Origin: Aquirufa sp.
Lineage (GTDB): Bacteria; Bacteroidota; Bacteroidia; Cytophagales; Spirosomataceae
Direction of reading: 5' to 3'
Length of the DNA: 64,000 bases
NCBI RefSeq assembly: GCF_044342065.1
Contig: NZ_JBIIQN010000010.1
Coordinates: forward strand, 3,764 to 67,763
How positions within the stretch are numbered: the first letter of the stretch is position 1; each line of letters begins with the position of its first letter. Positions 2,991 through 34,851 of the stretch are shown piece after piece. The notes beneath the pieces are model-generated. The model saw only the letters and a list, made by a program, of their open reading frames with translations, was not told where the DNA came from and did not search any database. Position numbers and translations under genes: made by a program.

Positions 2991-3002
2991 TTATTTAACG
3001 GT
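2991..3002 (-). promoter_or_regulatory. Recurrent upstream motif ACCGTTAAATAA, copy 1
   Basis: 65 nt upstream of the ATG at 2937; TAACTTGG begins 41 nt after the motif start. Confidence 0.6.
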
Positions 3003-3064
3003 ATTAATTTTTGGTGGTTGTTCATTTCTTGGGCAAATATCGACACTATTGGTACTGATTTTGA

Positions 3065-3101
3065 AAAGCTACAAGCTTGTAATACCCAAACTTGTAGCTT
3101 T
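3065..3101 (-). terminator. Stem-loop downstream of the vWA gene (terminator or REP-like)
   Basis: aaagctacaag(3065-3075)...cttgtagcttt(3091-3101), extendable to 15 bp with one mismatch. Confidence 0.55.
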
Positions 3102-3109
3102 CAGATCAA

Positions 3110-3724
3110 TTAAAACCTCCTCAAATCCTCCCCCTTACCCTTCCGCTCCAGGTAATCAACCATCGAATTTGCCACCCGGTTAAAGACCGCGTCTTGCATG
3201 TCTTCTTTGGAGAAGGCGGCGCTATTTTCCTGGCGGATGTTCATCTTTTCGGCCATGTCGACGGCGTCGAGTGTGGCTCCTAGGAAGCTAAATGAATACT
3301 TGCCGCTGGCTTCTTTGGTCTTGATTAATTCTTGAATTTGGGCCAATGAAAAGAATCTGGAGACGTTCTCATAGCCATCGGTGAGGATGACGATGATGGC
3401 GGTGTCTCCCTCGTTTTCGAGTAATTGGTCCACCCGATTAATGCTGAGGCCGATGCCGTCCAATAAGGCCGTACCTCCGCTTGGTTGGTAATTAATTTGG
3501 TTGACGCTCGGGAGTTGGTCGACCGGTAAATTAGCAAAGCGAATATCTACCTCATTGCTAAATACGGTTAAACCTACGCGGATATCCTGGTCGGGGAATT
3601 CCTGTGCAATGGCTTTGATTTTTTTGTTTTGGGATTCAAGGCCGCTTAAGGTCGCGTCCACACAATCACACATCGATCCGCTTTGGTCTAATACGAAATG
3701 GTAAATGGTTTTTTGCTTGTTCAT
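3110..3724 (-). CDS. Stand-alone vWA domain protein
   Basis: MIDAS motif LDQSGSM, GGTALLDG, ILTDGYEN. Confidence 0.9.
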   Translation of the reverse strand: MNKQKTIYHFVLDQSGSMCDCVDATLSGLESQNKKIKAIAQEFPDQDIRVGLTVFSNEVDIRFANLPVDQLPSVNQINYQPSGGTALLDGIGLSINRVDQLLENEGDTAIIVILTDGYENVSRFFSLAQIQELIKTKEASGKYSFSFLGATLDAVDMAEKMNIRQENSAAFSKEDMQDAVFNRVANSMVDYLERKGKGEDLRRF

Positions 3725-3853
3725 GGTAGTAAATTTTGATTGTTAAATTTTCTTTATACCCATTAATACCCAAATCGGGAAAACGTCACCCCCTTTTTTA
3801 AAATTTTTTATTCCCGTGATTTTACCTAATTTCCGACCAACAATTTTTAAGCT

Positions 3854-4426
3854 TTGGCCAAATCCTACGACCAGTCGAATCAGTATTACCTCGGCCTTTT
3901 TCGAGCCAATCGAAGGCGTGGCATCGATGTGATTTATTTGGATCATAAACAGTATTTTATCCAATACCTAGCGCAGTTTTATCCCATTTATTCGGATTTG
4001 GATATGATTTATACGGATGCGGTGTTAGTCCTGATTGAAAATTTAGGTCGTTCCTCGTTCCAATTGACCTGTACCATACAGACGTATTTGAATGCGATAG
4101 GAAAGAACCAATTGTTCAAGAAGATTAATCGAGAACCTGAAGTTTCCACCTTACCAGAGGGATTTGATTGCGGTGATTGGTTGGAGGATATCGAACTCGA
4201 TGGAATTTCCCCAGCAGAGTATGCAATTTTCAAAAAGGTCTTCAAACAAATGGCGGAGGCGCGTTCGAAATGTTACCAAATATTCCAGCGGGTTTATTAC
4301 CAGGGTCAAGCGATGAAGGAAATTGCGCTGGAATTGGGCTATAGTTCTGAGGCGAATGCACGCCAACAAAAGTATAAGTGCCTCTTGCGTTTAAAGGAGA
4401 ATATAGATAAACAGTTAAAGAAATGA
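3854..4426 (+). CDS. ECF-type sigma-70 factor
   Basis: Region 2-like DMIYTDAVLVL...TYLNAIGKNQ and region 4-like CYQIF...YYQGQAMKEIALELGYSSEANARQQKYKCLLRLK; TTG start. Confidence 0.85.
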   Translation: MAKSYDQSNQYYLGLFRANRRRGIDVIYLDHKQYFIQYLAQFYPIYSDLDMIYTDAVLVLIENLGRSSFQLTCTIQTYLNAIGKNQLFKKINREPEVSTLPEGFDCGDWLEDIELDGISPAEYAIFKKVFKQMAEARSKCYQIFQRVYYQGQAMKEIALELGYSSEANARQQKYKCLLRLKENIDKQLKK

Positions 4427-4962
4427 TGCGCCCCATAGATGAATTAATGGCTTTTTATGCGTTTAGGCAAGTAAAAACACGTCGAATTCGCCGCCCTCGT
4501 TTATCAGCGGAGGCGCAAGCGTTAGCTGCAGAATTTGAGGCATTGATTACTGAATCCACCACGCTTGCTACGTTGGTATTGTATTTTAAGTCCCGTTTTG
4601 ATGAATCGGATGTAGCCAAATTGTATGAGCTTTATCTGCAATCGACTTTTGAAATTTTAGAAAATGCGAGCTTGGTTGATATGGATGTCGATCTTGCGTT
4701 TGAACAAAAAGTAAGCCAGTTCACTCGCTTGCAGGAAAGGGAGCAAATGAGGAAGCGCTTTAATCAGCTGGAGGAGGAAGTATTGATGTCCTCGAATGAT
4801 GCGAGAGAGCCTGAATTTCAAGAAAATCGCTTACATGAAGAGCTCATGCCAACTGAAAATAAATCGGATGGTGGTTGTTTGTGGCAAATTGTGTTGACGA
4901 TTATTTCACTCAGCATCGTTTCCTTGCTAATTCGTTTCCTTTGGTTATTCTTCAAAGCTTGA
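4423..4962 (+). CDS. Putative membrane-anchored anti-sigma factor
   Basis: Overlaps the sigma stop (ATGA); helical cytoplasmic body with a single C-terminal TM helix. Confidence 0.5.
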   Translation: MMRPIDELMAFYAFRQVKTRRIRRPRLSAEAQALAAEFEALITESTTLATLVLYFKSRFDESDVAKLYELYLQSTFEILENASLVDMDVDLAFEQKVSQFTRLQEREQMRKRFNQLEEEVLMSSNDAREPEFQENRLHEELMPTENKSDGGCLWQIVLTIISLSIVSLLIRFLWLFFKA

Positions 4963-5036
4963 TTTAACAGCTAAGTAAGTAAGTAAGTGTAACATCGGAT
5001 TAAGTGCTACATATCATCCAGTTTGCTTTGGCCTAT

Positions 5037-5048
5037 ACCGTTAAATAA
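5037..5048 (+). promoter_or_regulatory. Recurrent upstream motif ACCGTTAAATAA, copy 2
   Basis: 78 nt upstream of the ATG at 5115; 16-bp identity (inverted) with copy 1. Confidence 0.6.
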
Positions 5049-5114
5049 ATAGGGCCTCAGTTGATTTGCAGATAAAATTTATTTCAATACTTTTATTTTT
5101 ATACCTATTAACCG

Positions 5115-5597
5115 ATGAAGTCAACCATTCTTTTTTTTGTTCTTTTTGCCATATCATTTATTAGTTTTTCCCAAACGACTCCATTCAAAAAATATACTCC
5201 TTGTGCGTTTGCCATAGAACTGCCTATAGATATGCAAATGTCAAAAATGTATAGTGATGCGAGTGCGGATTATTGCGATTTTCAAGTAAAAATGCGCGAT
5301 GGATATCCAATCATGGAATTGCATGCTTTATTGAGTTCAAGATTTGAATTTGGTACCATTAAGGAAGCATATAAAGCAGCTTTGGCATCTTCAGAATTGA
5401 ATATTACCTATAAGGCACAAATAGGCAATTTCTTTGTTATTTCTGGGTATAACCCCCAAAATGGCAATATCGTTTATTGGAAAAGGGTAATGGGGCGCTC
5501 TTATGTAAGTGATATGCAGATCGAGTACAATCGATCAAGAAAGGATTTAATAGAAAGAAATTTGGGAAGAATTGCCAAATCATTTCAAAGTAAATAA
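5115..5597 (+). CDS. Hypothetical secreted protein (possibly PsbP/DcrB-like fold)
   Basis: Signal peptide; FAIELP near the N-terminus and a strand-rich C-half. The fold is a guess. Confidence 0.65.
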   Translation: MKSTILFFVLFAISFISFSQTTPFKKYTPCAFAIELPIDMQMSKMYSDASADYCDFQVKMRDGYPIMELHALLSSRFEFGTIKEAYKAALASSELNITYKAQIGNFFVISGYNPQNGNIVYWKRVMGRSYVSDMQIEYNRSRKDLIERNLGRIAKSFQSK

Positions 5598-5686
5598 TAG
5601 CTACGGTGATAGCCGAAAAGCACCTAAAAATCGGGGCGAATTCTGAAAAGCCAAATGAGTAGGATGAATAAAAAATACAAGACATT

Positions 5687-6334
5687 ATGAAAGGCTTATT
5701 GATTGTTTTGACTGTTTTCATGCTAGGCAATGTTGCTTATGCGCAGAAAAGAATTGGTTTTAAAAATAAGATGATTAAAGAGTTGAATTTAAATATTGGC
5801 AATATGAATTTTGTTGAGGAATTCAAGCCAGATTTTCCCTCAATTTGGACCGATTTTAATCCTGAAAGCGAGGAATTTAAATTCACAGGTTATTATACAT
5901 TAGACCCCAAAACATTCGGAAGTGAGAATCAAGTTTTAAATGGAGAAGTAAAGTTAATTCGATTTCAAATGCAGGTCGATGAAGAAGCAACACTGCACAT
6001 GAAAGAAGAATTAACCTTTAATTATAGAAATGGCGAGATGAATGGTCCCATTTTCTATTCTAGGTATTTTGCAGAAAATAAAGGAGAATCTGAAGAATCA
6101 CAATTAGTTAACGCAAAATGGAAAAAAGACATAGGTTTGTCAGCTTCCTTTAATTATGATGAAGGTATTTATAAAAATATAAACTATTTAGAAACACGGG
6201 AGTTTGACCGTACCAAATTCATCATTACACAAGGTGAAGGGTACTACATTTCTTTAGAATATTTTAGTACTGTTATAGGTATAAATACAGCTAGTCCAAA
6301 TGAAAAGCCTGTCTTTCGGAAGTTAAAGTATTAA
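5687..6334 (+). CDS. Hypothetical secreted protein
   Basis: Signal peptide ending AYAQ; 215 aa. Confidence 0.7.
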   Translation: MKGLLIVLTVFMLGNVAYAQKRIGFKNKMIKELNLNIGNMNFVEEFKPDFPSIWTDFNPESEEFKFTGYYTLDPKTFGSENQVLNGEVKLIRFQMQVDEEATLHMKEELTFNYRNGEMNGPIFYSRYFAENKGESEESQLVNAKWKKDIGLSASFNYDEGIYKNINYLETREFDRTKFIITQGEGYYISLEYFSTVIGINTASPNEKPVFRKLKY

Positions 6335-6429
6335 TCCACTTCCAGTGTATAGACCATTTTTGAAGCTTAACGCCGAGTAGATGATGGAATACACTAATGT
6401 CAACCCTTTAAAGAACAATCGATAAACGT

Positions 6430-6702
6430 ATGAAATATATACTAGTACTAATCGTATCATTAGGCCCCTTAGTTCGAAAATGTGCTCAAGAAGGATCGGA
6501 GTTAGCAGCACAAAGAGCAGGCAGTAAGATATCTCAGCAAGGCTCAAAAGCGGCTATTCGTAATTCAGATGATATAATCGCACGGGTTGCAGCAAGGTCT
6601 ACCATTCTGGTGAATCGAGAACTGCATAAAAAGAATCAATATGTGACTTATGTTGATAGCACTAAGACGTTTATTGTCGATAATGTAAATACGAGCAAAT
6701 GA
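6430..6702 (+). CDS. Small hypothetical protein
   Basis: 90 aa; overlaps the next start (ATGA). Confidence 0.55.
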   Translation: MKYILVLIVSLGPLVRKCAQEGSELAAQRAGSKISQQGSKAAIRNSDDIIARVAARSTILVNRELHKKNQYVTYVDSTKTFIVDNVNTSK

Positions 6703-7364
6703 AATCAATAAGTAAACTATCGTTTATACTCATGATCTCTATGTTGATTTGGGGATGTGAAGATAAGTCAACTGCAGATGTGAATTCGCCCGATGTTAAA
6801 GTTAGCCGAGATGTAGAGTCGGTTAGGATTTTCAGATTTGACTCAGGCAGGTATCTCTTGGCTTCGAATTATAATAAAAGAAAAGGTAGCTTTTATTCCG
6901 CTTTTTCTGATGAAACATCTTCAACCAATAGTTCAGATTCAACGAATCTCCCCGACGTTAACATAGGTGAATATGACTATATCAACATCAAATTTTTGGA
7001 TAAGGGCAAAGTTGATTTGATTAGGAAGTACTATACCATTTCAAAAGATACCACGTTTAACATCAAGTTAAACTGGGTAACTCATTGTGAGATACTAGCG
7101 GGATCAAAAGCTCTTTTTGAGCAGGGAGGTGATATAAAGTTAAAATCGCTCAACACAGAAGAATATGATTCCAGTTATTCTATTTTGAATAAAGTGATGT
7201 ATTCCAAGAAGCTCAATTTTAATCCTGAAAAGTCTAAATCTGTATATAAAACAAATGGTTTGGAAATTACGTGTAACAAGCAAACCATTACTTGGAAATC
7301 GAAATCAACGTGGACAGCGGAATTTTTTTATGATCCTGAATTAAGGGAAAAATATAGGGAATAA
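6699..7364 (+). CDS. Hypothetical lipoprotein
   Basis: Lipobox IWGC followed by an acidic EDKS. Confidence 0.75.
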   Translation: MKSISKLSFILMISMLIWGCEDKSTADVNSPDVKVSRDVESVRIFRFDSGRYLLASNYNKRKGSFYSAFSDETSSTNSSDSTNLPDVNIGEYDYINIKFLDKGKVDLIRKYYTISKDTTFNIKLNWVTHCEILAGSKALFEQGGDIKLKSLNTEEYDSSYSILNKVMYSKKLNFNPEKSKSVYKTNGLEITCNKQTITWKSKSTWTAEFFYDPELREKYRE

Positions 7365-7373
7365 TTTCTTAGG

Positions 7374-7994
7374 TTAAATGGAGCCAATTTCCGCGCTTAT
7401 TAACCCACCTAATTTAATTTTACATGCTGGGCAAAAGTCTTTCAATAGATTTAGGTGGTCTTTCCCTTTAGCATCTCTCATGTAGCAGCCTTCATTGGGA
7501 CAGTGATTTAAACCTTGTGTGTGACCGATTTCGTGTAGCGTTAATTTGTAGAGCTTTTCTAATTTATTTTTTCCTTTTATCCGAAACGTGGAAACAATGC
7601 AGGATTGTTTTTCCTTCCTCCCTAATCCAAATATTCCCCAGTATTTGCCTTTCCCATTCAACGTAGCACATATGTCCTTTGTGGTAAATCCGACAGTCAC
7701 ATAACCGGGTTTTGTTCCCCGGCTCAAATAATTAATGAGGCTATCCGCTACGTAGCGATTATATGTTTTTATAAACCCACTTTTAGGAATTTCAATGGGT
7801 TTATTGATTTGTATTTTTGGAAATGATTTACGCAATTTTTTCTCAACATAGGTTAATGATTTCACAGGAAATCCTGTAAAAGGCTGCAAAATTACGGTGG
7901 GCGGTGCCTGTAGCGTATCACTAGTTCCAAATGGATAGCACGAGATGGTCAATAAGCCAATGAATACATATAGTGCTATTCGTAATCTGCTCAT
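7374..7994 (-). CDS. Archaemetzincin-like (peptidase M54) Zn metalloprotease lipoprotein
   Basis: HEIGHTQGLNHCPNEGCYM...FCPAC matches HExxHxxGxxHCx4CxM...CxxC; lipobox TISC. Confidence 0.9.
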   Translation of the reverse strand: MSRLRIALYVFIGLLTISCYPFGTSDTLQAPPTVILQPFTGFPVKSLTYVEKKLRKSFPKIQINKPIEIPKSGFIKTYNRYVADSLINYLSRGTKPGYVTVGFTTKDICATLNGKGKYWGIFGLGRKEKQSCIVSTFRIKGKNKLEKLYKLTLHEIGHTQGLNHCPNEGCYMRDAKGKDHLNLLKDFCPACKIKLGGLISAEIGSI

Positions 7995-8005
7995 GCGATT
8001 TAAGC

Positions 8006-8383
8006 CTAATTTCTACTGAAGCGAGAATCTCCAAAGCCCAAAATAGGCAAAAAGATGAATGGTAGAAATACGATTCCAACGGTAAAGGCCTCTGTTTTTC
8101 CAAATTTTTTGACCATCAAATTCGTTCCCCAGATTGAAAAGACTAAGCCAACGTAAGGAATACAGGCAAGAAGTCCCCACCACCAGGGCTTATCCGCAAT
8201 TTTCATAATAATTATCAGATGGTAAACGGGAATAATGGCTGCCCAACCTGGCTCTCCCGCTTTTTCAAAAATTTTCCAAAGCGAAATGATCGGGAGAAAC
8301 AAGAAAGGAATTAGCACAATTAGTAAAAGAATAATCTCACCAAAGCCAATACTGTTCATAAATAACAGATTTAATAGTTGCAT
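8006..8383 (-). CDS. DUF5684-like membrane protein
   Basis: LWKIFEKAGEPGWAAIIPVY...PWWW...KKFGK..F.VG..FLPFIFLPILGFG. Confidence 0.85.
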   Translation of the reverse strand: MQLLNLLFMNSIGFGEIILLLIVLIPFLFLPIISLWKIFEKAGEPGWAAIIPVYHLIIIMKIADKPWWWGLLACIPYVGLVFSIWGTNLMVKKFGKTEAFTVGIVFLPFIFLPILGFGDSRFSRN

Positions 8384-8448
8384 AATTTTTAGATTTAGGT
8401 TAATAGAGTAGGTAATATATTAGTTAAATAGGTAAACAAGCGAAATAA

Positions 8449-8460
8449 TTATTAAACGGT
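8449..8460 (-). promoter_or_regulatory. Recurrent upstream motif ACCGTTTAATAA, copy 3
   Basis: 77 nt upstream of the ATG at 8383; directly after the stop codon of the 329-aa gene. Confidence 0.6.
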
Positions 8461-9450
8461 TCATTGTCCTATTCGCTTCCTTTCTCCTCGGCTTCCGTGT
8501 ATATAATAATGCTTCGCTAATTCCTTGCCTAATACTCGTTCAAAATGCCCTTTAATCTTGGATAATTTTTCTGAAGCGGAATTATTTAATGCATTGCACA
8601 TATCATCAATTGACTGCCGCATTTCCTCTAGTGAACCCAAGGAGGAAATGTTCGCATAAATATCTTGCAATTCGGTTTTGTACTCTACCAAACTTGTCAG
8701 ATGAATACCTTCTGGATAACGCATATACAAGAGATACAAGGTTTTCTCCAAGGGCGTCATGCGAATTTCCAAGTTTCCATAGGCCGGAATCACCAGGTTA
8801 TATTCGCTCGTCACCACCAATGGGCTTGGTTCAATGTGCTGCCGCATGTTTTGCGCAAAAAGCATCTTAATCCGTAACGATTCAAGCAATTCAAATACGT
8901 GATTCATTTCCGGGGGACTGAGCTTCTTCGCGAGTAGTTCCATGCAGTTCGGGCAAATGTCTGCCGTACGCATTTTCAGGATTACCTCACGTTTGTTTTG
9001 GCAAAAATCATTCACGCAGCCCACGGGTTCTTTATGTAAAATATGCGCCAATTCGCGCTCTGATTGCACCATTTGATGCTGTAACATCAAGGCCAAAATA
9101 TGGTAGGCCACCGGTAATTCAGCCGGGCAATGAATAAAACGCTCCCAATCGCCTGCATGGACAAAACCATTACGTGGATTTACTGGATCTAAATAACCAA
9201 AGAAATTTCGCTCGTTCGGTTTTTCCGTGATGACAAAAATGAAAGTGTCTGACTCAATAGCAATATTTTCACGCGCCGATTGGCAAATTTCAAAAAGATC
9301 TTTCCACGCGAGAATAGGCTTGTCGGGCAATGGGAGGGGTTCTCCTTGCCCGACAAATACATTCATTCCGGCTATGGCTTGCAATAATTGATGTACCCTA
9401 TCAAAGGTTTCATGATTTACATCTTCCCCACGAAATAGTGTCGCTTTCAT
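8461..9450 (-). CDS. Degenerate M54-like Cys-rich domain fused to a C-terminal putative winged-HTH domain
   Basis: H..EPVGCVNDF...DICPNC without HExxH; C-terminus MTPLEKTLYLLY...PEGI...SASEKLSKIK..F...LG.ELAKHYYIHG resembles OmpR/SARP-like DNA-binding effectors. Confidence 0.55.
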   Translation of the reverse strand: MKATLFRGEDVNHETFDRVHQLLQAIAGMNVFVGQGEPLPLPDKPILAWKDLFEICQSARENIAIESDTFIFVITEKPNERNFFGYLDPVNPRNGFVHAGDWERFIHCPAELPVAYHILALMLQHQMVQSERELAHILHKEPVGCVNDFCQNKREVILKMRTADICPNCMELLAKKLSPPEMNHVFELLESLRIKMLFAQNMRQHIEPSPLVVTSEYNLVIPAYGNLEIRMTPLEKTLYLLYMRYPEGIHLTSLVEYKTELQDIYANISSLGSLEEMRQSIDDMCNALNNSASEKLSKIKGHFERVLGKELAKHYYIHGSRGERKRIGQ

Positions 9451-9452
9451 GC

Positions 9453-10484
9453 CTATTTTTTATCATATAATTCATCCAAGGATTCGCCTCGACGTTTTTT
9501 ATCTAAGTAATGATCCATGGAATCCGATAGTTTGTTCCAAACATCTTTTTGCATGGCTGCCTTATCAAATGCCATCGCATTTTGGCGTTTAATATTCATT
9601 TGTTCAGCCATGTAGACAGCATCTAAGGTTGCACCAAGGTAAGAAAATGTCCAGCGCCCCGTAGCCTCTTTACTTGAAATTAACTCACGAATCTGTTGCA
9701 AGGTAAAAATTTGAGATGCATTTTCATATCCATCCGTTAAAATGATGATGACCGCGGAATCTTCAGGTGATTTCATTTGGCGTTCCACACTTTGGATGGT
9801 GGTACCGATGGCATCCAATAAAGCCGTATTTCCATTTGGGCGATATGTGGGGATGGTTTGGGCAATCATTTGCCGGACTGTTAAATGTTCAAAAATCGGA
9901 TTTACCGAGCTGCTGAAAAAAGTTAATCCAGCACGAATGTCCTGCTCTGGAAATTTGACAGCCAATTCCAATATTTTGTTGCGCTGTTCCATCAATCCAT
10001 TCACGGTTTGATTGATGCAATCCGACATTGATCCACTTTCATCTGCAATGATGTGGTAGAAGGTTTTGGGCTTATCGTCCTTGATTACGTGAATGTATAT
10101 ATGATCTGGATAAGCACCTCCAAAAACATATTCCGTCACTGGACATAACCATAAGATGTGGCCATTGCGATCTGCTTTATAATACGCACCGGTATCCACC
10201 GGGGCATGGCCCACGGCATCCAATAGTTCCTGATCTTTTCCCATCCCTATTTTCTTTAAGGCATACGTTTGGTCCGCATAGGGCGCCGTCTCGATATGTA
10301 CTATTACCTCGGTTCCGTTGTTAGACAGTTGCTCTAAAAAGGTGTCGGCCCCTGCGACCATCATTAAGTTGGCCTTCGTTCCTAAACCCGCCTCTAAATA
10401 TGCTGGAAGATCAATATACCAGATTCCTGCTTCTTTGTAAAAGCGATGGGTCATGGACTGTGGATTTGCTTGTTCGTTTTTCAT
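9453..10484 (-). CDS. DUF6717-like domain fused to a vWA domain
   Basis: N-half RFYKE..IWYIDLP...LMMVAGADTFLEQLS...LWLCPVTEYVFGG.YP..IY; C-half MIDAS ADESGSM, TALLDAIG, ILTDGYEN. Start placed at 10484 (the ORF track starts at 10529). Confidence 0.75.
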   Translation of the reverse strand: MKNEQANPQSMTHRFYKEAGIWYIDLPAYLEAGLGTKANLMMVAGADTFLEQLSNNGTEVIVHIETAPYADQTYALKKIGMGKDQELLDAVGHAPVDTGAYYKADRNGHILWLCPVTEYVFGGAYPDHIYIHVIKDDKPKTFYHIIADESGSMSDCINQTVNGLMEQRNKILELAVKFPEQDIRAGLTFFSSSVNPIFEHLTVRQMIAQTIPTYRPNGNTALLDAIGTTIQSVERQMKSPEDSAVIIILTDGYENASQIFTLQQIRELISSKEATGRWTFSYLGATLDAVYMAEQMNIKRQNAMAFDKAAMQKDVWNKLSDSMDHYLDKKRRGESLDELYDKK

Positions 10485-10704
10485 GTCGTTTTTTGTTTTG
10501 GTTGAAAACTTGACACAAAGTTGGTGCATGAATCACTTGCCGACCGAAAATTACAAGCTTGTAGGAGGGGAAAATTAGGTTAATAATTATCTATAATAAC
10601 TTGTTTGTTAATAAGTTATGATTTAGGAATTTTGTTATAGAATGTAACTTCTTGTGAATTAAGATTTTTTTACTCAATTTGAAATAAGAACTTTCAACGT
10701 TAGT

Positions 10705-11092: not shown

Positions 11093-12001
11093 TTACTTCT
11101 TCTCCTCCTGTAATCTAACCATGAATATCGGCCCAAATTTTCCACTGCTTATACGTGGAGTATGCCATATATTCTTTTTATCCCGGTAATAGATTTCCGA
11201 GATTGTGCCATCCAAGTACAAGGCATAGGAGCAATGTAATTCGTCTTTGAAAAAAGTCGCAAAATCATGGAAGGTGATTTCGGTTTCCGAAATCGCAAAG
11301 ACAATTTGGCCTTTGTCATTAATCCCCACCCCATTGCGAACATTCGTATTTTTAGAGGTAGCGGAGAATTTATCGTGGATTTTGTTGTCAATCACCAGCA
11401 TAGGTCCCGACTGGGTTGCTAGTAATAAACCTTTCGGATCAATTTTCTTCTCTAAGAAATCCTTTGTGGTATGAATACTTGGATTATTTTTTTTGTCTAT
11501 GGTAAAAATCCCGTTCGGATATAGATAGAAGTTCCCATTTTTAGGGGTTGTTATTGAGGTATCCAAATCTTGTTTGATTTCGCCAGCTGAAATGGTCAGA
11601 CCCACCGCATTGAAATTGGGTTGAAACATCCCCGCATTCATTAATACATACCCGTCTTCCTTTGTCTTACCTACAATCGATTCAAAACTATTGGCTTGTT
11701 TGATACTCGGAATAAGCGAGATCGTGTTAATGTCCGAAACAATTAGGTATTTGATTTGATATTTAGCTTGATATTCAACTGATTTAAATTGCGCATTTTC
11801 CTTTACTCCTTTAGGTATTCCTTTTGGGAAAAGCAATAAAGTGCTATCAATTTCAGTATTTTCAACCGTCTTTTTCGCCTTTTTATCAAACTTGAACGCA
11901 CTAACGTTATAAAAATTCTTGAAATGCTTAAAATCATTATCAAGCATGTAATTGGATAGTGCAAAATAAAGACCCAGAAAGAAGATCGGAAAATTAAACA
12001 T
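11093..12001 (-). CDS. Phosphodiester glycosidase (NAGPA/YigE-like) family protein
   Basis: MNAGMF, GNFYLYPNGIF, ATQSGPMLV, RNGVGI, FHDFATFF...CSYALYLDGTIS; the start overlaps the upstream stop (TAATG). Confidence 0.85.
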   Translation of the reverse strand: MFNFPIFFLGLYFALSNYMLDNDFKHFKNFYNVSAFKFDKKAKKTVENTEIDSTLLLFPKGIPKGVKENAQFKSVEYQAKYQIKYLIVSDINTISLIPSIKQANSFESIVGKTKEDGYVLMNAGMFQPNFNAVGLTISAGEIKQDLDTSITTPKNGNFYLYPNGIFTIDKKNNPSIHTTKDFLEKKIDPKGLLLATQSGPMLVIDNKIHDKFSATSKNTNVRNGVGINDKGQIVFAISETEITFHDFATFFKDELHCSYALYLDGTISEIYYRDKKNIWHTPRISSGKFGPIFMVRLQEEKK

Positions 12002-14807: not shown

Positions 14808-14819
14808 TTATTAAATGGT
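14808..14819 (-). promoter_or_regulatory. Recurrent upstream motif variant ACCATTTAATAA, copy 4
   Basis: 100 nt upstream of the 14719 start; back-to-back with copy 5. Confidence 0.5.
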
Positions 14820-14846: not shown

Positions 14847-14858
14847 ACCGTTTAATAA
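14847..14858 (+). promoter_or_regulatory. Recurrent upstream motif ACCGTTTAATAA, copy 5
   Basis: 73 nt upstream of the ATG at 14920; TAATATTG begins 42 nt after the motif start. Confidence 0.6.
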
Positions 14859-14919
14859 TTTTTCAGTCTTTTTGAACGCTATTTTTCTTAATATTGACCT
14901 TGTATCAATAATCTACACG

Positions 14920-16788: not shown

Positions 16789-16799
16789 TTCGTAAACAC

Positions 16800-17276: not shown

Positions 17277-17279
17277 CAT

Positions 17280-18224: not shown

Positions 18225-18226
18225 AT

Positions 18227-19327: not shown

Positions 19328-19331
19328 GTAA

Positions 19332-21143: not shown

Positions 21144-21145
21144 TT

Positions 21146-27561: not shown

Positions 27562-27566
27562 CGTCT

Positions 27567-30305: not shown

Positions 30306-30380
30306 ATTCGTAATTTTAGTTTTAATAGGAAATATTTTAGATACAATTAAGTTTTTTCAAACCTTAAATGCAATGTTTTT

Positions 30381-30392
30381 TTATTTAACGGT
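30381..30392 (-). promoter_or_regulatory. Recurrent upstream motif ACCGTTAAATAA, copy 6
   Basis: 87 nt upstream of the first gene of the FHA/kinase operon. Confidence 0.6.
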
Positions 30393-30684: not shown

Positions 30685-30939
30685 ATGAAGAAACAGGAAT
30701 TAAACCGATTACGTAATCGGTTTGACTTGCTAGCGGGAAAAGATGAGCATCCTGATTTTGTTCTAGATGCCGCTTTTTTGGCGTTGCGCGACGCTTGCAC
30801 GCGTGCATTTGAAGTTTTGAATTTGCAACGTACGCAGCGGTATTCCATTGTGGAATTACAGGATTTACTTGAGTTCGTTGACCATAAGGCCGACTACCAT
30901 CACCAAATTTTAAAATTACATCTAAAAATTAACCCTTAA
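30685..30939 (+). CDS. Small hypothetical protein
   Basis: 84-aa helical ORF directly upstream of, and co-oriented with, the TPR-protease. Confidence 0.55.
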   Translation: MKKQELNRLRNRFDLLAGKDEHPDFVLDAAFLALRDACTRAFEVLNLQRTQRYSIVELQDLLEFVDHKADYHHQILKLHLKINP

Positions 30940-30986
30940 CTAATTTTTGGATAAGATCTATCAACCTTATTGACGTTAAGAAATAT

Positions 30987-33035
30987 ATGAAAATGAAAAA
31001 AATTGTTTTGTTATGCTTGTTGGCCTGCGGCTTCTCAGCTATGTCCCAGAGTTATCAATTGCAAATGGGAATCAATACATTCTTAGAAAAAAAATATGAT
31101 GAAGCGATTCCCTTTTTTAATAAGGAATTGCAGTTGCATCCAAAGGAAGGACGTGCCTATTATTATTTGGCAAAAATTCATCTTACTAAAGATGAAAATG
31201 TGGAAGGCTTGAAAAAAATTGATTTAGCCATTGCCAATTTAGCTGATGCAGATACCGTATTAGCAAAAGCATGGATCACCAAAGGGGATATTTTTCAGCA
31301 AATTAACGATACCGCTAGATTCGAATCGGCTTATTTAAAGGCCTTGAAGTTATTTCCAGCACTTCCTGAAGTGTACTTGGAACGCGCATCCAGTTATATG
31401 AGTTGGCGGATGTATGAAAAGGCAAAGGTGGATTTATTTAAGGTCCTTGAGTTAGATCAAACCCATCTTGAAGCCCGGAGTTTATTGTGTAACCTATATG
31501 TGGAAGAAAAGAAATACGATGCGATTATCAAGGAGGCCAATAAAATGATTGCGCTAGATCCCAATTACGTGGATTCCTATGATTTTCGCGCAATGGCGTA
31601 TTTTTATTTAAAAAAGTATGATTTAGCGATTCAGGATGCCTATACGGCTTTGACTCTGAACGATCGGGTTGCTCGGTTGAAGTTCAATTATTTGGTATAT
31701 GCCAAGAAAAATTTTGGTTTAGCCCTTGCCAAAATTTCAAGCATAATCAATGAATATCCTCAGAACGATAATTGGTACTTGTTGCGTTCCCAAATCTATG
31801 CTGAAAAGCGTGATTTCGATAAGGCTTTACAGGATTTTGAGCGAATCTTAACCCTTGTATCAGTAAATATATACCCGCATTTTTTTGCTAAGCGCGCTGA
31901 GGTATATTCGAAGATGGGTTTATATAAGAAGGCAATTGGAGATTATACGGGAGCCATTGAGAGCGATTCTGCTGATTGGGAAAGCATTGCAGCCCGGGGG
32001 AATGCCTATCGATTGCTGGGCAAGTATGACCTTGCAATAGCTGATTTTGATCGGGCTATTGAATTGTATCCTGAGTCGGCCGACTACTATTTGTTTCGAG
32101 GCTGGGCAAAAGAGGAATTGCCAGGGGAATCAGCTGCCAGCTTAGCTGATTACACAACTGCGATCGAGCTAGATCGCGAATTATCCATTGCCTATTTACA
32201 TCGAGGGCGGCTTTACCAAAAAAGTTACCAAGACACCATTCGGGCGAATGCTGATTTTCGCCGGGTGATTGAATTAGATACCATGACGGGTTCGGAGCGT
32301 AATTCCCGCCAATTTGCGCTTGCTGGATTAGGAAAAGTTCATGAGGCTAAGGCTTGGATGTCCAAGATTCTTTCCGAGTATCCCGAAGATGGGAATTACT
32401 ATGATGCGGCTTGTTTGTATGCTCTTTTGAACTCACCAAAAGAATCAGTGGCTTATTTGGATTCCTCATTCCAAAAGGGCTATCGTGATTTTATTCATTT
32501 GGCTACGGATAATGATTTGGATTTAGTTCGGAATTTACCTGAGTTTAAAAATGTCGTTTCGCAATGGAAGGCAAAGTTTGGTGCTAAAATGGAGCCATCT
32601 GCCGTAATTCGTCCGCTTGAGTCAACGATTAGCGGCACCTATGTCATTCCTTTTAAAGTGGATAGGGGAGGGACTTTTGAAGTTGCTAGTAAGGTGAATG
32701 GCCTACCTTTGAAAATGCTGTTTGATACGGGAGCGGGTGATATTACAATCTCACAAACCGAAGTTGATTTTATGATTAAGAATGGATATTTGAATGAGAA
32801 GGATTTTACCGGAAAGGCTCGCTATACGTTGGCAAATGGTGAGGCTCTAATCGCGAAGACTGTTTTATTAAAAAAAGTGGAACTAGGCGGGCTCGTGCTG
32901 GAAAATGTAGCAGCGGCTGTGGTGGAAAATAGGGAAGCGGGTATGTTGTTCGGACAAAGCGCCATGGGGCGGTATGCCACGATAACCATCGATAATAAAA
33001 AGAAGCAATTGATTATTACAGGCAATAAAAAATAA
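30987..33035 (+). CDS. Secreted TPR protein with a C-terminal retropepsin-like aspartic protease domain
   Basis: Signal peptide; many TPRs; YYDAACLYAL...GY.D......D.DL terminal helical unit; MLFDTGA and MLFGQSAM retropepsin motifs. Confidence 0.88.
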   Translation: MKMKKIVLLCLLACGFSAMSQSYQLQMGINTFLEKKYDEAIPFFNKELQLHPKEGRAYYYLAKIHLTKDENVEGLKKIDLAIANLADADTVLAKAWITKGDIFQQINDTARFESAYLKALKLFPALPEVYLERASSYMSWRMYEKAKVDLFKVLELDQTHLEARSLLCNLYVEEKKYDAIIKEANKMIALDPNYVDSYDFRAMAYFYLKKYDLAIQDAYTALTLNDRVARLKFNYLVYAKKNFGLALAKISSIINEYPQNDNWYLLRSQIYAEKRDFDKALQDFERILTLVSVNIYPHFFAKRAEVYSKMGLYKKAIGDYTGAIESDSADWESIAARGNAYRLLGKYDLAIADFDRAIELYPESADYYLFRGWAKEELPGESAASLADYTTAIELDRELSIAYLHRGRLYQKSYQDTIRANADFRRVIELDTMTGSERNSRQFALAGLGKVHEAKAWMSKILSEYPEDGNYYDAACLYALLNSPKESVAYLDSSFQKGYRDFIHLATDNDLDLVRNLPEFKNVVSQWKAKFGAKMEPSAVIRPLESTISGTYVIPFKVDRGGTFEVASKVNGLPLKMLFDTGAGDITISQTEVDFMIKNGYLNEKDFTGKARYTLANGEALIAKTVLLKKVELGGLVLENVAAAVVENREAGMLFGQSAMGRYATITIDNKKKQLIITGNKK

Positions 33036-33054
33036 TGCTAATTTTAGTGCAGTC

Positions 33055-33792
33055 ATGACGAAAACGGTTCCCTTGCTACTTTTTTTATTCGTTTGCCTTT
33101 TATTCGCTTTGGTTTATTTTTTTCGAGCACCCTCAGGAATCGAAAGAAAGCGCGACCCTTGGGCCTTAGCCAAGCAATACGATGTGCGTGGATTGGATCT
33201 CTCACATTGGAACGGGCGCATATTGTATGATCATTTAGGTGATTTGGATTTTGTATTCTTAAAAGTAAGCGAAGGTGATAGTCGTGTGGACCCTAGTTTC
33301 ATCGGCCACTATCATGCTTTTCGGAAAAGAGACATTCCTGTGGGAGCCTATCATTTTTTTAGATTTGATGTGGACGGGAAAATGCAGGCCCGGCATTTTT
33401 TACGCCAATTGGACGGACGCCACTTGCAATTACCCCTTGTGATTGATGTAGAGCAAGATGGGAATCAGTTTGTAAGCAATGAAATCGTCAGAATGCGCTT
33501 AAAGGAATTCATGGCTGAATTGAAAAAACATACCCGCCAAAAACCCATCATTTATACAAACGGAAACGGGTATAGCAATTTTATTGAAGACGATTTTGAT
33601 CATCATACACTTTGGCTTAGTGCTACAAATACTTGGAGGCCAGCGATGATGGATTGTACATTTTGGCAATTCAATATAGATGCCGATTTAATGGCGATTA
33701 CCCATCGGGCTGATTTGAATGTTTTTCGAGGCAGTAGGGAAGAATGGGAAGGCTATTTAGCCAAACATAAACCTTATGTCATCAACATGTAG
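33055..33792 (+). CDS. GH25 lysozyme (muramidase) family protein
   Basis: GLDLSHWNG, FVFLKVSEG, VGAYHFF, LVIDVE, FWQF; N-terminal TM anchor. Confidence 0.9.
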   Translation: MTKTVPLLLFLFVCLLFALVYFFRAPSGIERKRDPWALAKQYDVRGLDLSHWNGRILYDHLGDLDFVFLKVSEGDSRVDPSFIGHYHAFRKRDIPVGAYHFFRFDVDGKMQARHFLRQLDGRHLQLPLVIDVEQDGNQFVSNEIVRMRLKEFMAELKKHTRQKPIIYTNGNGYSNFIEDDFDHHTLWLSATNTWRPAMMDCTFWQFNIDADLMAITHRADLNVFRGSREEWEGYLAKHKPYVINM

Positions 33793-33804
33793 GGGCAGTT
33801 TTAA

Positions 33805-34314
33805 TCATCTAGGCCTTCCGAAATTCTGCGTCCAATAGTTTTTCTCCCGACCAAATCCCACTTCGGTAAATCTGGCGTTCATGATGTTTTTACAATGCCC
33901 AGGGGAATTAATCCATGATTCCATGACTTGTTTTTCAGAAGTTTGCCCTAAAGCAATGTTTTCGCCCAATACTGTCCATGTATACCCTTCGGAATTGACT
34001 CGGTCCGCCATTGTTCTGCCATCTTGACTCGTATGGCTAAAGTAATTTTTGGTCGCCATATCCGTACTGTGTTTACTTGCGGATTTGCCAAGTTTGTCGT
34101 TCCATGCCAACTTAGCCACAGCGGGCATGGACTCCGTGCCACATTGACAACCGGCTGTTCGATAGCCATTGATTAAACTTAGCATGTTTGCTTTGTTTAT
34201 GCCGTAAATGATTTCATTTGTGGGTAATGGTGCAATCGCAGGGTCATCAGATTTGGTACAACTAAAAACAAGCGCTCCTAAAGTGAAGTAAAGAAGATGT
34301 TTAAGTTGTTTCAT
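33805..34314 (-). CDS. CAP (SCP-like) domain lipoprotein
   Basis: Lipobox VFSC; INGYR, LAWNDKL, HSTDM, FSH, GENIA, WINSPGHCKNIM. Confidence 0.92.
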   Translation of the reverse strand: MKQLKHLLYFTLGALVFSCTKSDDPAIAPLPTNEIIYGINKANMLSLINGYRTAGCQCGTESMPAVAKLAWNDKLGKSASKHSTDMATKNYFSHTSQDGRTMADRVNSEGYTWTVLGENIALGQTSEKQVMESWINSPGHCKNIMNARFTEVGFGREKNYWTQNFGRPR

Positions 34315-34336
34315 GGCGAGTTATCGTTATGGCTAG

Positions 34337-34738
34337 TTATTTTTTCAGATCAATGTAATTAACATACGTAATGTTGTCTTTCTTGTATTCTTGGTACAAT
34401 GTCAATGTTTTTGCCGTTAAATTGCGGATCTCAAGCACACTATCACTTCCGTCGGCCTCCCCTTCAATTATTGAGATTTTTTTATTCTTTTCGATGACTT
34501 TGTATCGAGCTGCCCCTCGACTATTTTGCATGAAAACAATCATATCCGTTGTGGTGAATTCTATATAGTCATCCATTTTTCCTACGTATTCATATGTTGA
34601 TTTTCCATTCTCCGTGCTTCGGGATACCAACAATTGCCATTTTCCTATAATGGAAAGCTCTGGTGCAGCGGGCATAAGCGCTTCGTCTTTGGAACAGCCG
34701 AACATGAGCAATGTTGTTAATAAGAAAATTGACTTCAT
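34337..34738 (-). CDS. Lipocalin-like lipoprotein
   Basis: Lipobox MFGC; IIGKWQL...YIEF...IRNLTAKTLTL. Confidence 0.7.
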   Translation of the reverse strand: MKSIFLLTTLLMFGCSKDEALMPAAPELSIIGKWQLLVSRSTENGKSTYEYVGKMDDYIEFTTTDMIVFMQNSRGAARYKVIEKNKKISIIEGEADGSDSVLEIRNLTAKTLTLYQEYKKDNITYVNYIDLKK

Positions 34739-34839
34739 GAAATTGATTCAATTCTGATTTTTCATAACTTGAGGGAAATCGTTTGATAGTTGTTTACCAT
34801 GCGAAATTATGATATCTCGTAACTTCAATGCAGTAAAAA

Positions 34840-34851
34840 TTATTTAATGGT
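34840..34851 (-). promoter_or_regulatory. Recurrent upstream motif variant ACCATTAAATAA, copy 7
   Basis: 113 nt upstream of the ATG at 34738; TAATTTCG begins 42 nt after the motif start. Confidence 0.5.

What the first reader, a model, noticed from the sequence alone, without database searches (positions are those of the whole stretch)
2991..34851. 12-bp motif ACC(G/A)TT(A/T)AATAA upstream of seven accessory transcription units: a putative regulon
Seen in sequence: copies at 2991-3002(-), 5037-5048(+), 8449-8460(-), 14808-14819(-), 14847-14858(+), 30381-30392(-) and 34840-34851(-). All are intergenic, all point toward the downstream gene, and all lie 65-113 nt before a start. In four cases a degenerate TAnnTT-like -7 element starts 41-42 nt after the motif start (TAACTTGG, TATATTAC, TAATATTG, TAATTTCG). 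I saw no copy upstream of housekeeping genes, but the scan was by eye. Inference: an activator site just upstream of the -33 region of weak promoters, defining an envelope regulon that includes the kinase operon. Candidate regulators are the wHTH protein at 8461-9450 (its stop abuts copy 3), the ECF sigma at 3854, or a factor encoded elsewhere.
Basis: partly seen in the sequence, partly recalled or inferred. Interest (0 to 1): 0.75.

Follow-up and report, generated by a model that had tools for sequence, protein, structure and literature searches.

The report
LytTR-like promoter box regulon in Aquirufa
The 12-base motif is a real promoter-proximal regulator-binding box. It sits at a fixed distance in front of about 15 mostly accessory genes for exported and signalling proteins in a freshwater Aquirufa bacterium. 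Its likeliest reader is a small LytTR-type regulator encoded elsewhere in the genome, not the neighbouring regulators first proposed.

Summary
All seven copies exist at the stated coordinates (0.11 expected by chance). Genome-wide there are 17 exact copies: 14 are intergenic and 13 point at the next gene. Composition-matched control words give 0.45 intergenic and 0.26 gene-directed copies.

A matrix trained only on sites from other genomes recovers the same promoters. The box extends to (T/G)ACCGTTWAATAA(A)T. It lies 41±2 nt before a Bacteroidota TAnnTT(T)G -7 box, so it spans about -53 to -42. No second conserved block exists, which argues against a two-block ECF promoter.

The box is kept at orthologous promoters in other Aquirufa species, including the FHA-vWA-PP2C-kinase operon. 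It also precedes variable accessory genes in many species.

Both regulators in the window are real: an OmpR/PhoB-like winged helix fused to a pseudo-metzincin, and a divergent ECF sigma. However, the box is conserved in genomes that lack both.

The box matches the LytTR consensus at 8 of 9 positions. It sits, often as a 19-20-nt tandem pair, before a core 105-residue stand-alone LytTR gene in every named Aquirufa locus examined (34 of 34). This points to an autoregulated LytTR activator. Binding and the transcription start are untested, and sparse metatranscriptome data do not match the predicted start exactly.

The parts
2991..3002 (-). Box copy 1 (ACCGTTAAATAA), 65 nt before the ATG of a 112-aa exported protein (2599-2937). 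It heads a run of small genes down to 333.
   Evidence: scores 25.0 bits with a matrix trained on other genomes
2954..2961 (-). TAACTTGG, the -7-box candidate for copy 1, at +41 from the box start
5037..5048 (+). Box copy 2 (ACCGTTAAATAA). It lies just after the anti-sigma-like gene, 78 nt before an exported 160-aa protein (5115-5597). The unit probably runs to 7364.
   Evidence: 25.1 bits. A related metagenome contig (L059) has a box in the same place after the anti-sigma-like gene. No clear -7 box at +41 here; candidates lie at +51 and +57.
8449..8460 (-). Box copy 3 (ACCGTTTAATAA). It abuts the stop codon of the winged-helix gene, 77 nt before DUF5684 (8006-8383) and an M54-like peptidase (7374-7994).
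   Evidence: The same position after the winged-helix gene carries ACCGTCAAATAA in G425 (L067 1807).
8412..8419 (-). TATATTAC, a weak -7-box candidate for copy 3, at +41
14808..14819 (-). Box copy 4 (ACCATTTAATAA). It heads the leftward operon 14719/14746 to 11093 (secreted 361-aa protein, two proteins with no family match, NAGPA-like).
   Evidence: 19.8 bits
14847..14858 (+). Box copy 5 (ACCGTTTAATAA), divergent partner of copy 4. It lies 73 nt before the ATG at 14920 and heads the operon 14920-23419 (large exported protein, lipoprotein, DUF6175, MBG, fn3).
   Evidence: Divergent box pairs also occur in G029 and G425.
14889..14896 (+). TAATATTG, the -7-box candidate for copy 5, at +42
30381..30392 (-). 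Box copy 6 (ACCGTTAAATAA), 87 nt before the FHA gene. It heads the operon 30305 to 23487 (FHA, Zn-ribbon-FHA, vWA-FHA, PP2C, two Hanks kinases).
   Evidence: Orthologous operons in G029 (L064 10047) and G425 (L067 10511) carry the same box. Metatranscriptome contigs cover the operon up to 30362/30395 and nothing beyond 30408.
30342..30349 (-). TAATTGTA, the -7-box candidate for copy 6, at +43. It lies within a block conserved in G029 and G425.
34840..34851 (-). Box copy 7 (ACCATTAAATAA), 113 nt before a 133-aa exported protein (34337-34738) and a CAP-domain protein (33805-34314)
   Evidence: In the alignment with G012, the box and the TAATTT box are the conserved islands in a diverged spacer.
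34802..34809 (-). TAATTTCG, the -7-box candidate for copy 7, at +42
30932..30943 (+). Decayed copy (ACCCTTAACTAA, 2 mismatches), 55 nt before the TPR-aspartyl-protease gene (30987-33035)
   Evidence: Orthologous promoters in G030, G012, L059 and L074 carry a consensus or near-consensus box at this place.
8461..9450 (-). N-terminal metzincin-like domain without HExxH, Cys4 cluster, and a C-terminal OmpR/PhoB-like winged helix. Always follows a DUF6717-vWA gene. A real regulator candidate, but not the best fit for the box.
3854..4962 (+). Divergent ECF-type sigma (3854-4426) with a membrane-anchored anti-sigma-like partner (4423-4962). Always divergent from a 204-aa vWA gene (3110-3724).

Best explanation
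The motif is the recognition box of a transcription activator. The full box is (T/G)ACCGTTWAATAA(A)T. It lies on one face of the DNA at about -53 to -42, just upstream of the -33 region of sigma-A-type Bacteroidota promoters whose TAnnTT(T)G -7 box starts 41±2 nt after the box start.

The most likely reader is a 105-residue protein consisting of a bare LytTR DNA-binding domain. It is encoded outside the window at G000:C55:23080-23397, directly after a tRNA-Met gene. That gene is core to the genus Aquirufa and carries the same box, often as two copies 19-20 nt apart, at the same distance from its own -7 box. It therefore probably activates itself.

In this genome the factor would switch on about 15 transcription units. 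Seven are in the window's island and five or six in a second island on contig C11. They encode mostly signal-peptide, lipoprotein or membrane proteins, plus the FHA/vWA/PP2C/Hanks-kinase operon.

Shown here: the box, its orientation, its spacing, its conservation, and its association with the LytTR gene. Inferred: binding, activation rather than repression, and the transcription start.
For: Statistics:
- 7 copies in the window against 0.11 expected.
- 14 of 17 genome copies are intergenic and 13 are gene-directed. Shuffled-letter control words give at most 3 and 2.
- A matrix built from 21 sites of other genomes gives 14 hits of at least 18 bits in this genome, 12 of them intergenic and gene-directed.

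Geometry:
- Across 37 sites from several species, only the box and T at +45/+46 are conserved (31 of 37 at +46).
- TAnnTT starts at +39 to +44 in 21 of 37 sites. Other 6-nt windows average 4.4, maximum 11.
- The sigma-A -7 box occupies -12 to -5 (PMC9723704), which puts the box at -53 to -42.

Conservation:
- Orthologous sites are kept in diverged spacers before the 133-aa/CAP unit, the TPR gene and the FHA-kinase operon.
- The strict 14-mer occurs 142 times in 64 Aquirufa genomes against 50 for the reversed control. The excess is concentrated in a subset of genomes.

Link to LytTR:
- ACCGTTWAA matches the family consensus [TA][AC][CA]GTTN[AG][TG] at 8 of 9 positions (PMC5600425). It also shares CCGTT with AlgR sites, which can act singly (PMC4064291).
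- Of the five LytTR genes in this genome, only the stand-alone one has the box upstream, followed by a perfect TACGTTTG at +42.
- 28 of 30 and 34 of 34 named Aquirufa loci carry the box upstream of the orthologous gene; 17 of the 34 have it as a tandem pair.
- 28 of 28 have TAnnTT at +39 to +44.
- In an alignment of 16 diverged promoters, the box and the -7 box are the only conserved blocks.
- Small LytTR-only regulators that activate their own genes through repeats 4-11 bp upstream of the -35 are documented (PMC6193735).
- The box is maintained before this gene in genomes that lack both window candidates.
Against: - No binding or expression experiment exists.
- The LytTR gene's own site in this genome is degenerate (ACCGCTAGATAA, 11.6 bits) and has no clear second copy.
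- Most target promoters have a single box, whereas classic LytTR sites are paired repeats about 21 nt apart.
- The LytTR gene is core, so co-occurrence cannot discriminate between candidates.
- Three LytTR response regulators also exist in this genome.
- In metatranscriptome X25, an exact-match contig of the FHA operon reaches 30362. That is 25 nt upstream of the start predicted from the -7 box. A 95%-identical contig in X26 covers the box itself.
- The LytTR gene showed no RNA in these runs.
- These libraries also carry sparse background contigs elsewhere, so the RNA result is ambiguous.
Confidence: 0.55

Rival explanations
1. The island's own one-component regulator (8461-9450; pseudo-metzincin plus OmpR/PhoB-like winged helix) binds the box as a monomer. 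A specific ACCGTT half would sit in the major groove and the A/T tract would contact the wing, like one PhoB half-site.
For: - The C-terminal 125 residues model confidently (pLDDT 92.5). The best 50 PDB matches listed are OmpR/PhoB-family DNA-binding domains (including ToxR's); PhoB effector domain scores probability 0.98-0.99.
- The gene lies inside the island, and box copy 3 abuts its stop codon here and in G425.
- In G425 it lies directly downstream of the box-driven kinase operon and may be co-transcribed with it.
Against: - No box lies upstream of its own operon.
- Loci with 69-73% identical orthologues (L061, L063) have no box nearby.
- G025 and G004 have good intergenic boxes but no detectable homologue.
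- The box is conserved before the LytTR gene in genomes without any homologue: G010, G002, G026 and G032.
Confidence: 0.12
2. One of the three LytTR response regulators of two-component systems (C56:32131-32859, C59:37017-37778, C59:188680-189420) reads the box. The small LytTR gene would then be merely one of its conserved targets.
For: - These proteins have the same DNA-binding fold and the same family consensus (PMC5600425).
- At least the C56 gene is conserved in a relative (L114).
- A kinase-controlled regulator would supply the signal input that a bare LytTR domain lacks.
Against: - None has a box upstream of its own gene, whereas LytTR systems are typically autoregulated (PMC6193735).
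- In genomes with a minimal regulon, the promoter of the small LytTR gene is the only conserved site. Self-regulation explains that most simply.
Confidence: 0.12
3. The box is a promoter element read directly by the island's divergent ECF sigma factor (3854-4426), as a -35 or an extended -10 element.
For: - The protein family matches ECF sigma structures across regions 2 and 4 (6in7, E=0.004).
- It is followed by a membrane-anchored partner.
- A box sits right after that operon here and in L059.
- CGTT resembles some ECF -10 elements (from my own knowledge).
- RNA contigs reaching 30362/30395 would fit a start closer to the box.
Against: - 37 sites show no second conserved block within 40 nt on either side except the TAnnTT at +41. 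A 29-nt gap is too long for a -35/-10 pair.
- No box lies before the sigma gene itself.
- The sigma is absent from G025, G004, G006 and most of the genus, where boxes or the LytTR-gene box persist.
Confidence: 0.04
4. Another regulator not identified here (for example an AraC-type or other core factor) binds the box, or the box acts as a repressor operator rather than an activator site.
For: - I could not profile the whole proteomes of the other genomes.
- The RNA boundary at the FHA operon does not match the predicted start.
- An earlier report in this scan found an AraC-type protein to be a better fit than a LytTR protein for a similar module (e1-5036293, not tested here).
Against: - The box matches the LytTR consensus and is universally present before a LytTR gene.
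- A position upstream of the -33 region, with weak -33/-7 boxes at the targets, is typical of activators.
Confidence: 0.15

Closest known systems
LytTR regulatory systems (HdrR/HdrM and BrsR/BrsM of Streptococcus mutans, and the LRS-like operons of Bacteroides; PMC6193735)
   Same: - A small regulator that is essentially only a LytTR domain.
- Positive autoregulation is inferred from boxes a few bp upstream of the -35/-33 region.
- The regulon consists of accessory, secreted products.
   Different: - No membrane inhibitor gene is adjacent; the gene is monocistronic after a tRNA-Met gene.
- Most target promoters have one box, not a pair.
- Where boxes are paired, the period is 19-20 nt rather than 20-22.
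- The promoters are of the Bacteroidota -33/-7 type.
AgrA, ComE and PlnC/D boxes (LytTR response regulators of Firmicutes; consensus [TA][AC][CA]GTTN[AG][TG], PMC5600425)
   Same: The core matches at 8 of 9 positions. The site is oriented and lies upstream of the -35-equivalent. It fronts weak core promoters that need activation.
   Different: Those regulators have receiver domains and bind paired repeats separated by 12-13 bp. Here the factor has no receiver domain and the sites are mostly single, with a 3' A/T-rich extension (AATAAAT).
AlgR sites of Pseudomonas aeruginosa (CCGTTCGTC; PMC4064291)
   Same: Both share the CCGTT core. AlgR functions at single 9-bp sites, including one at about -45.
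   Different: AlgR is a response regulator whose sites lie at very variable distances and in either orientation. Here the distance and orientation are fixed.
PhoB/OmpR half-sites (pho box: 7 specific bp plus an A/T tract)
   Same: The box has a specific half followed by an A/T-rich half. The island encodes a PhoB-like winged helix.
   Different: Pho boxes are tandem 11-bp units that replace the -35. The box here is single, lies further upstream, and persists in genomes without the winged-helix protein.

Membership tests
LytTR-family operator (the DNA site) | 9-bp core fitting [TA][AC][CA]GTTN[AG][TG] | tested here: met
   ACCGTT(A/T)AA fits 8 of 9 positions; the last is A instead of T/G (logo from 37 sites). 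Consensus quoted from PMC5600425.
LytTR-family operator (the DNA site) | Two direct repeats about 20-22 nt apart | tested here: inconclusive
   Target promoters in the 37-site set have no second copy. The LytTR gene's promoter has a tandem pair at 19-20 nt in 17 of 34 genomes. Tandem boxes also occur at G444:C162 (three copies) and G443:C73.
LytTR-family operator (the DNA site) | [quoted passage not shown] | tested here: met
   The box ends about 29 nt before the TAnnTT -7 box, so it spans roughly -53 to -42 and ends about 5 nt upstream of a -36 to -33 element (PMC9723704; the -33 element's position is from my own knowledge of Bacteroides promoters). Thirteen of 14 intergenic copies are gene-directed. 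The start sites themselves are not mapped.
LytTR-family operator (the DNA site) | Site present before the regulator's own gene (autoregulation) | tested here: met
   28 of 30 and 34 of 34 orthologous promoters carry it. This is in silico evidence only.
LytTR-family operator (the DNA site) | Bound by a LytTR domain protein | not testable with these tools
   Needs EMSA, DAP-seq or ChIP.
LytTR domain protein (the proposed factor, G000:C55:23080-23397) | Match to Pfam PF04397 above the curated cut-off | tested here: met
   62.9 bits against a cut-off of 22.6, E=6.3e-17, profile positions 8-97 of 98.
LytTR regulatory system (LRS) in the sense of PMC6193735 | Co-transcribed transmembrane inhibitor gene next to the regulator | tested here: not met
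   The gene is monocistronic. A tRNA-Met gene lies upstream and a convergent 300-aa gene downstream. I therefore do not file it as an LRS.
ECF sigma promoter | Two conserved blocks (-35 and -10) 16-18 nt apart | tested here: not met
   No conserved column between +14 and +40 or in the 30 nt upstream.
OmpR/PhoB-type winged helix (8461-9450 C-terminal domain) | Effector-domain fold | tested here: met
   Model pLDDT 92.5. Foldseek's best 50 listed matches are OmpR/PhoB-family DNA-binding domains (including ToxR's), although E-values are only 0.02-1.6 and TM-scores 0.36-0.57 by query length and 0.19-0.71 by target length, lowest against full-length response regulators. There is no Pfam or PDB sequence hit.

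The most novel reading that the evidence does not exclude
A bare 105-residue LytTR domain, with no receiver domain, membrane segment or inhibitor gene, is the master activator of the flexible surface and secreted proteome across Aquirufa. Accessory gene cassettes, including 3,000-residue surface proteins, would carry its box with them when they move between hot spots and species. Its activity would be set post-translationally by the FHA/vWA/PP2C/Hanks-kinase module that it itself switches on. That would be a Ser/Thr-phosphorylation-gated LytTR circuit of a kind not yet described.
Probability: 0.12. Interest if true: 0.7.

Novelty: new member of a known kind. Interest (0 to 1): 0.45.

Why it matters
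Gene regulation in freshwater Cytophagales is almost unexplored. LytTR regulators are abundant in Bacteroidota, but I found no paper describing a LytTR regulon in the phylum, apart from the Bacteroides LRS-like operons of PMC6193735.

This result gives a concrete, testable circuit: one small factor, one 16-bp box, a fixed promoter geometry and about 15 target units. It also names a cultured carrier, Aquirufa esocilacus HETE-83D, which has 11 strict sites including the kinase operon.

The circuit ties a Hanks-kinase/PP2C/FHA/vWA signalling module and many uncharacterised exported proteins (DUF6175, DUF5684, DUF6717-vWA neighbours, CAP, giant adhesin-like proteins) into one co-regulated set. That narrows their likely function to a common envelope or surface programme.

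The box also works as a practical marker for accessory surface-gene cassettes in Aquirufa genomes.

Tried and rejected
- **Looking for the box next to distant homologues of island genes.** DUF6175 loci at 47-56% identity in other families, and one in the same genus, show only chance-level matches. Loci of 32-41% homologues of the winged-helix protein across the order have no exact copy. The box is specific to the genus.
- **Co-occurrence of the two window candidates with the box.** Neither tracks it.
- **Single hits in the 2.5-3.2-Mb, 98-99%-complete genomes.** Of 20 inspected, 9 lie inside ORF calls (7 of them antisense), 2 point away from the next gene, and the 9 gene-directed ones lie 45-260 nt from it (6 of them at 179 nt or more), in front of unrelated genes. 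I treated these as chance, with one exception: L085, where the box precedes the LytTR gene.
- **Recombination site or cassette boundary.** Rejected. The box occurs at one end of a cassette only, has no inverted partner, keeps a fixed spacing to a -7 box, and precedes a core gene.
- **Literature search for the exact 12-mers.** It found nothing relevant.
- **Mapping starts from public metatranscriptomes.** Only the FHA operon had usable coverage, and the boundary is ambiguous.
- **Close orthologues of the small LytTR gene outside the genus.** None found.
- **Sequence searches of the winged-helix protein.** Pfam and PDB gave nothing. Only the fold comparison was informative.

Full report
**Observation**

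Dinucleotide-preserving shuffles give a mean of 0.11 copies and at most one. All seven copies lie between ORFs and point at the downstream gene. They sit 65-113 nt before the likely ATG.

The window is contig C8:3764-67763 of a 2.61-Mb, 40% G+C assembly in 59 contigs. Using a simple greedy ORF call that covers 94% of the genome, I found 17 exact copies genome-wide. Fourteen are intergenic, and 13 of those point at the next gene at 25-129 nt. Two hundred control words made by shuffling the motif's letters average 4.2 copies, 0.45 intergenic and 0.26 gene-directed. None reaches more than 3 intergenic or 2 gene-directed copies.

A second cluster of five to six sites lies on contig C11 at 147-172 kb. 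Single sites lie on C6, C46 and C59, and one on C41 points away from the next gene.

**What the target genes are**

In the window, the box heads seven units:
- small exported proteins (2599-2937 onward; 5115-7364);
- DUF5684 plus an M54-like peptidase;
- a secreted-protein/NAGPA operon;
- a DUF6175/MBG/fn3 operon of exported proteins;
- the FHA, Zn-ribbon-FHA, vWA-FHA, PP2C and two-Hanks-kinase operon;
- a 133-aa exported protein with a CAP-domain protein.

Elsewhere it precedes:
- lipoproteins, including a Cys-rich DnaJ-finger repeat protein, a beta-propeller and an InlB-repeat metallopeptidase-like protein;
- an SH3/TonB-C protein;
- a PsbP-like protein;
- membrane proteins.

By inspection of the N-termini, about 13 of the 15 first genes encode signal-peptide, lipoprotein or membrane proteins. 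None is a housekeeping gene.

**Anatomy of the site**

I aligned 37 sites: 16 from this genome and 21 from other genomes. The box extends to (T/G)ACCGTTWAATAA(A)T. The only other conserved columns are T at +45 and +46 (31 of 37 at +46).

TAnnTT starts at +39 to +44 in 21 of the 37 sites, and at +41 or +42 in 17 of them. Any other 6-nt window averages 4.4 sites, with a maximum of 11. In this genome, 7 of 16 sites match TAnnTTTG at 5 of 6 positions or better at +40 to +42.

The sigma-A -7 box of Bacteroidota, TAnnTTTG, occupies -12 to -5 (PMC9723704). The box would therefore span about -53 to -42, immediately upstream of the -33 region. Nothing is conserved in the 30 nt upstream or between +14 and +40. 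The site is not palindromic, and the target promoters in this set have no second copy. This is the layout of a promoter-proximal activator site. It is not the layout of a two-block alternative-sigma promoter.

**Conservation**

The organism belongs to the freshwater genus Aquirufa and occurs in lake metagenomes. The island itself is accessory: DUF6175 is found in only 2 of 24 other genomes of the genus, and one of those matches is distant. Where orthologous units exist, however, the box is kept.
- **133-aa/CAP unit.** In G012, the box and the TAATTT box are the conserved islands in a diverged spacer.
- **TPR-aspartyl-protease gene.** Its promoter carries a consensus or near-consensus box in G030, G012 and two metagenome contigs. 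Here it has decayed to ACCCTTAACTAA at 30932.
- **FHA-vWA-PP2C-kinase operon.** It is preceded by the box, with a divergent partner box, in G029 and G425.

A position matrix trained only on the 21 foreign sites gives 14 hits of at least 18 bits in this genome, and 12 are intergenic and gene-directed.

Across 64 Aquirufa genomes the strict 14-mer ACCGTTWAATAAWW occurs 142 times, against 50 for the reversed control. The excess is concentrated in a subset: 11 each in this genome and G029, 8 in G444, and 5 in six others. In the 2.5-3.2-Mb, 98-99%-complete genomes inspected, the few hits are mostly inside ORFs or far from genes.

In the genomes with many hits, the box sits before variable genes inserted between conserved core genes. 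Different cassettes occupy the same hot spot in different species. These include proteins of 3,109 and 3,386 residues.

**The candidate regulators in the window**

*The winged-helix protein, 8461-9450.* It has no Pfam or PDB sequence match.
- Its family of 'hypothetical proteins' models well (pLDDT 85).
- The N-terminal domain resembles metzincins, with an archaemetzincin (3lmc) as best match, but it lacks HExxH.
- The C-terminal 125 residues, modelled alone (pLDDT 92.5), return OmpR/PhoB-family DNA-binding domains (including ToxR's) as the 50 best PDB matches listed. The PhoB effector domain scores probability 0.98-0.99.
- It is therefore a plausible DNA-binding regulator. It always follows a DUF6717-vWA gene.

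*The sigma-like protein, 3854-4426.* It is a divergent ECF sigma. A family profile matches an ECF sigma structure over regions 2 and 4 (E=0.004), and some sources call its homologues sigma-70 family proteins. It has a membrane-anchored partner and is always divergent from a 204-aa vWA gene.

- Neither gene has a box upstream.
- Loci with 69-73% identical winged-helix orthologues have no box.
- G025 and G004 have good intergenic boxes but no detectable homologue of either protein. G006 lacks the sigma and matches only the metzincin-like part of the winged-helix protein, not its DNA-binding domain.
- The box is under selection in genomes that lack both (next section).

**The LytTR link**

The core ACCGTTWAA fits the LytTR-family consensus [TA][AC][CA]GTTN[AG][TG] at 8 of 9 positions (PMC5600425). 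It shares CCGTT with AlgR sites, which also work singly (PMC4064291).

This genome has five LytTR genes: three response regulators and two small stand-alone proteins. Only one of the five has the box upstream. It is the 105-residue protein at C55:23080-23397, which matches PF04397 at 62.9 bits against a cut-off of 22.6. Its site is GACCGCTAGATAAATC, 68 nt before the ATG, followed by a perfect TACGTTTG at +42.

The gene follows a tRNA-Met gene. Orthologues at 47% identity or better turn up in 56 of the 63 other genomes of the genus searched, but there are no close orthologues in other genera of the family.

Evidence from the orthologous promoters:
- A box-like site lies 63-78 nt before the ATG in 28 of 30 loci.
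- It is present in 34 of 34 named Aquirufa loci, where one lies 81 nt before the ATG. These include the type strains of A. echingensis, A. regiilacus, A. avitistagni, A. esocilacus, A. originis and A. antheringensis.
- In 17 of the 34 it forms a tandem pair 19-20 nt apart.
- All 28 scored promoters have TAnnTT at +39 to +44.
- In an alignment of 16 promoters whose proteins share only 48-81% identity with the protein of this genome, the box and the -7 box are the only conserved blocks.
- Several of these genomes (G010, G002, G026, G032) have neither the winged-helix protein nor the sigma.

Small LytTR-only regulators that activate their own genes through repeats 4-11 bp upstream of the -35 are known as LytTR regulatory systems (PMC6193735). 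The defining partner of those systems, an adjacent membrane inhibitor gene, is absent here, so I do not file this as one.

**Mechanism proposed**

The small LytTR protein would bind the box on one face of the helix at about -53 to -42 and help sigma-A RNA polymerase at promoters with weak -33 and -7 elements. It would activate its own gene, through one or two boxes, and a species-specific set of accessory units.

Shown here: the site, its orientation, its spacing, its conservation and its association with the LytTR gene. Inferred: binding, the sign of regulation, and the input signal. A bare DNA-binding domain needs some control. The box-driven kinase/phosphatase/FHA/vWA module is an obvious but untested candidate.

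**Conflicting or weak evidence**

- Two freshwater metatranscriptomes contain this organism.
  - Their contigs cover the FHA operon almost continuously up to 30362 (exact match, X25) or 30395 (95% identity, X26). Nothing is covered beyond 30408.
  - The transcript boundary therefore lies at the box region. However, it is about 25 nt or more upstream of the start predicted from the -7 box (about 30337).
  - The same libraries show sparse read-length contigs elsewhere, including one spanning the box on C6. Background DNA or read-through could explain the discrepancy, but a start closer to the box cannot be excluded.
- The LytTR gene itself had no coverage.
- The LytTR gene's own site in this genome is degenerate.
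- One of the three LytTR response regulators, or an unidentified factor, could be the true reader.

**Comparison and novelty**

The closest known systems are LytTR operators (AgrA, ComE, PlnC, AlgR) and LytTR regulatory systems. The site meets three of the family's features: the core consensus, the position and orientation, and a site before the regulator's own gene. The paired-repeat feature is only partly met. Binding cannot be tested here.

No paper in the library contains the box sequence in a relevant context, and a search found no paper describing a LytTR regulon in Bacteroidota, apart from the Bacteroides LRS-like operons of PMC6193735. Earlier reports of this scan describe similar LytTR-type boxes at fixed distances from -7 boxes in other Bacteroidota. 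I treat those as unverified leads. They suggest the kind is common.

I therefore rate this a new member of a known kind. It is a solid, testable regulon prediction with some unusual features: single boxes, a bare LytTR factor, and cassette-borne promoters. It is not a new category.

Noticed in passing
L098 (G444:C37), L104 (G006:C89), L102/L108/L110 (G458, G444, G441), L113, L114: The same chromosomal hot spots between conserved core genes hold different accessory cassettes in different Aquirufa species. Each cassette has its own box-bearing promoter. They include giant proteins of 3,109 and 3,386 residues and a 1,791 + 1,543-residue pair.
   Followed up: partly
window 3110-4962 and 8461-10529; L059, L061, L063, L072-L074, L101: There are two conserved gene pairs. 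A 204-aa vWA gene is always divergent from the ECF-like sigma/anti-sigma pair. A DUF6717-vWA gene is always followed by the pseudo-metzincin/winged-helix regulator. In some genomes DUF6717 and vWA are separate genes next to the sigma instead (L072, L101).
   Followed up: partly
L048 / L055 5385-6374 (G030:C58): The 85% identical orthologue of the winged-helix regulator in G030 carries an in-frame TAA stop. It may be a pseudogene or an assembly error.
   Followed up: no
L121 1307-1380 (G000:C55), and the equivalent place in G444 and G027: In the three genomes read here, the small LytTR gene directly follows a tRNA-Met gene and its terminator hairpin. The tRNA is very highly covered in the metatranscriptomes, while the LytTR gene has zero depth.
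   Followed up: partly
L099 2882-2931 (G444:C162); L100 2967-2997 (G443:C73): Two or three tandem boxes occur at a 19-nt period. At G444:C162 they precede a distant DUF6175-type operon; at G443:C73 they precede two proteins related to neighbours of this genome's C6 target gene. These are multi-box promoters, unlike the single-box targets in the window.
   Followed up: no
window 11642-11659 and 14294-14311: Metatranscriptome contigs of depth 26-42 join these two short stretches through 16 unrelated letters. They probably come from another organism or a shared low-complexity linker. Unexplained.
   Followed up: no
G455:C3:167842-168269; G030:C171:640-1077: A second, paralogous small LytTR gene (111-121 residues, about 32% identical) also has a strict box 160-180 nt upstream in two genomes.
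   Followed up: no
L059 15323-19299: In one lake metagenome contig the island is flanked by a phage-type integrase, an HTH_17 excisionase-like gene and a D5_N/DUF5906 primase-like gene. This hints that the sigma/vWA/winged-helix island can be carried on an integrative element.
   Followed up: no
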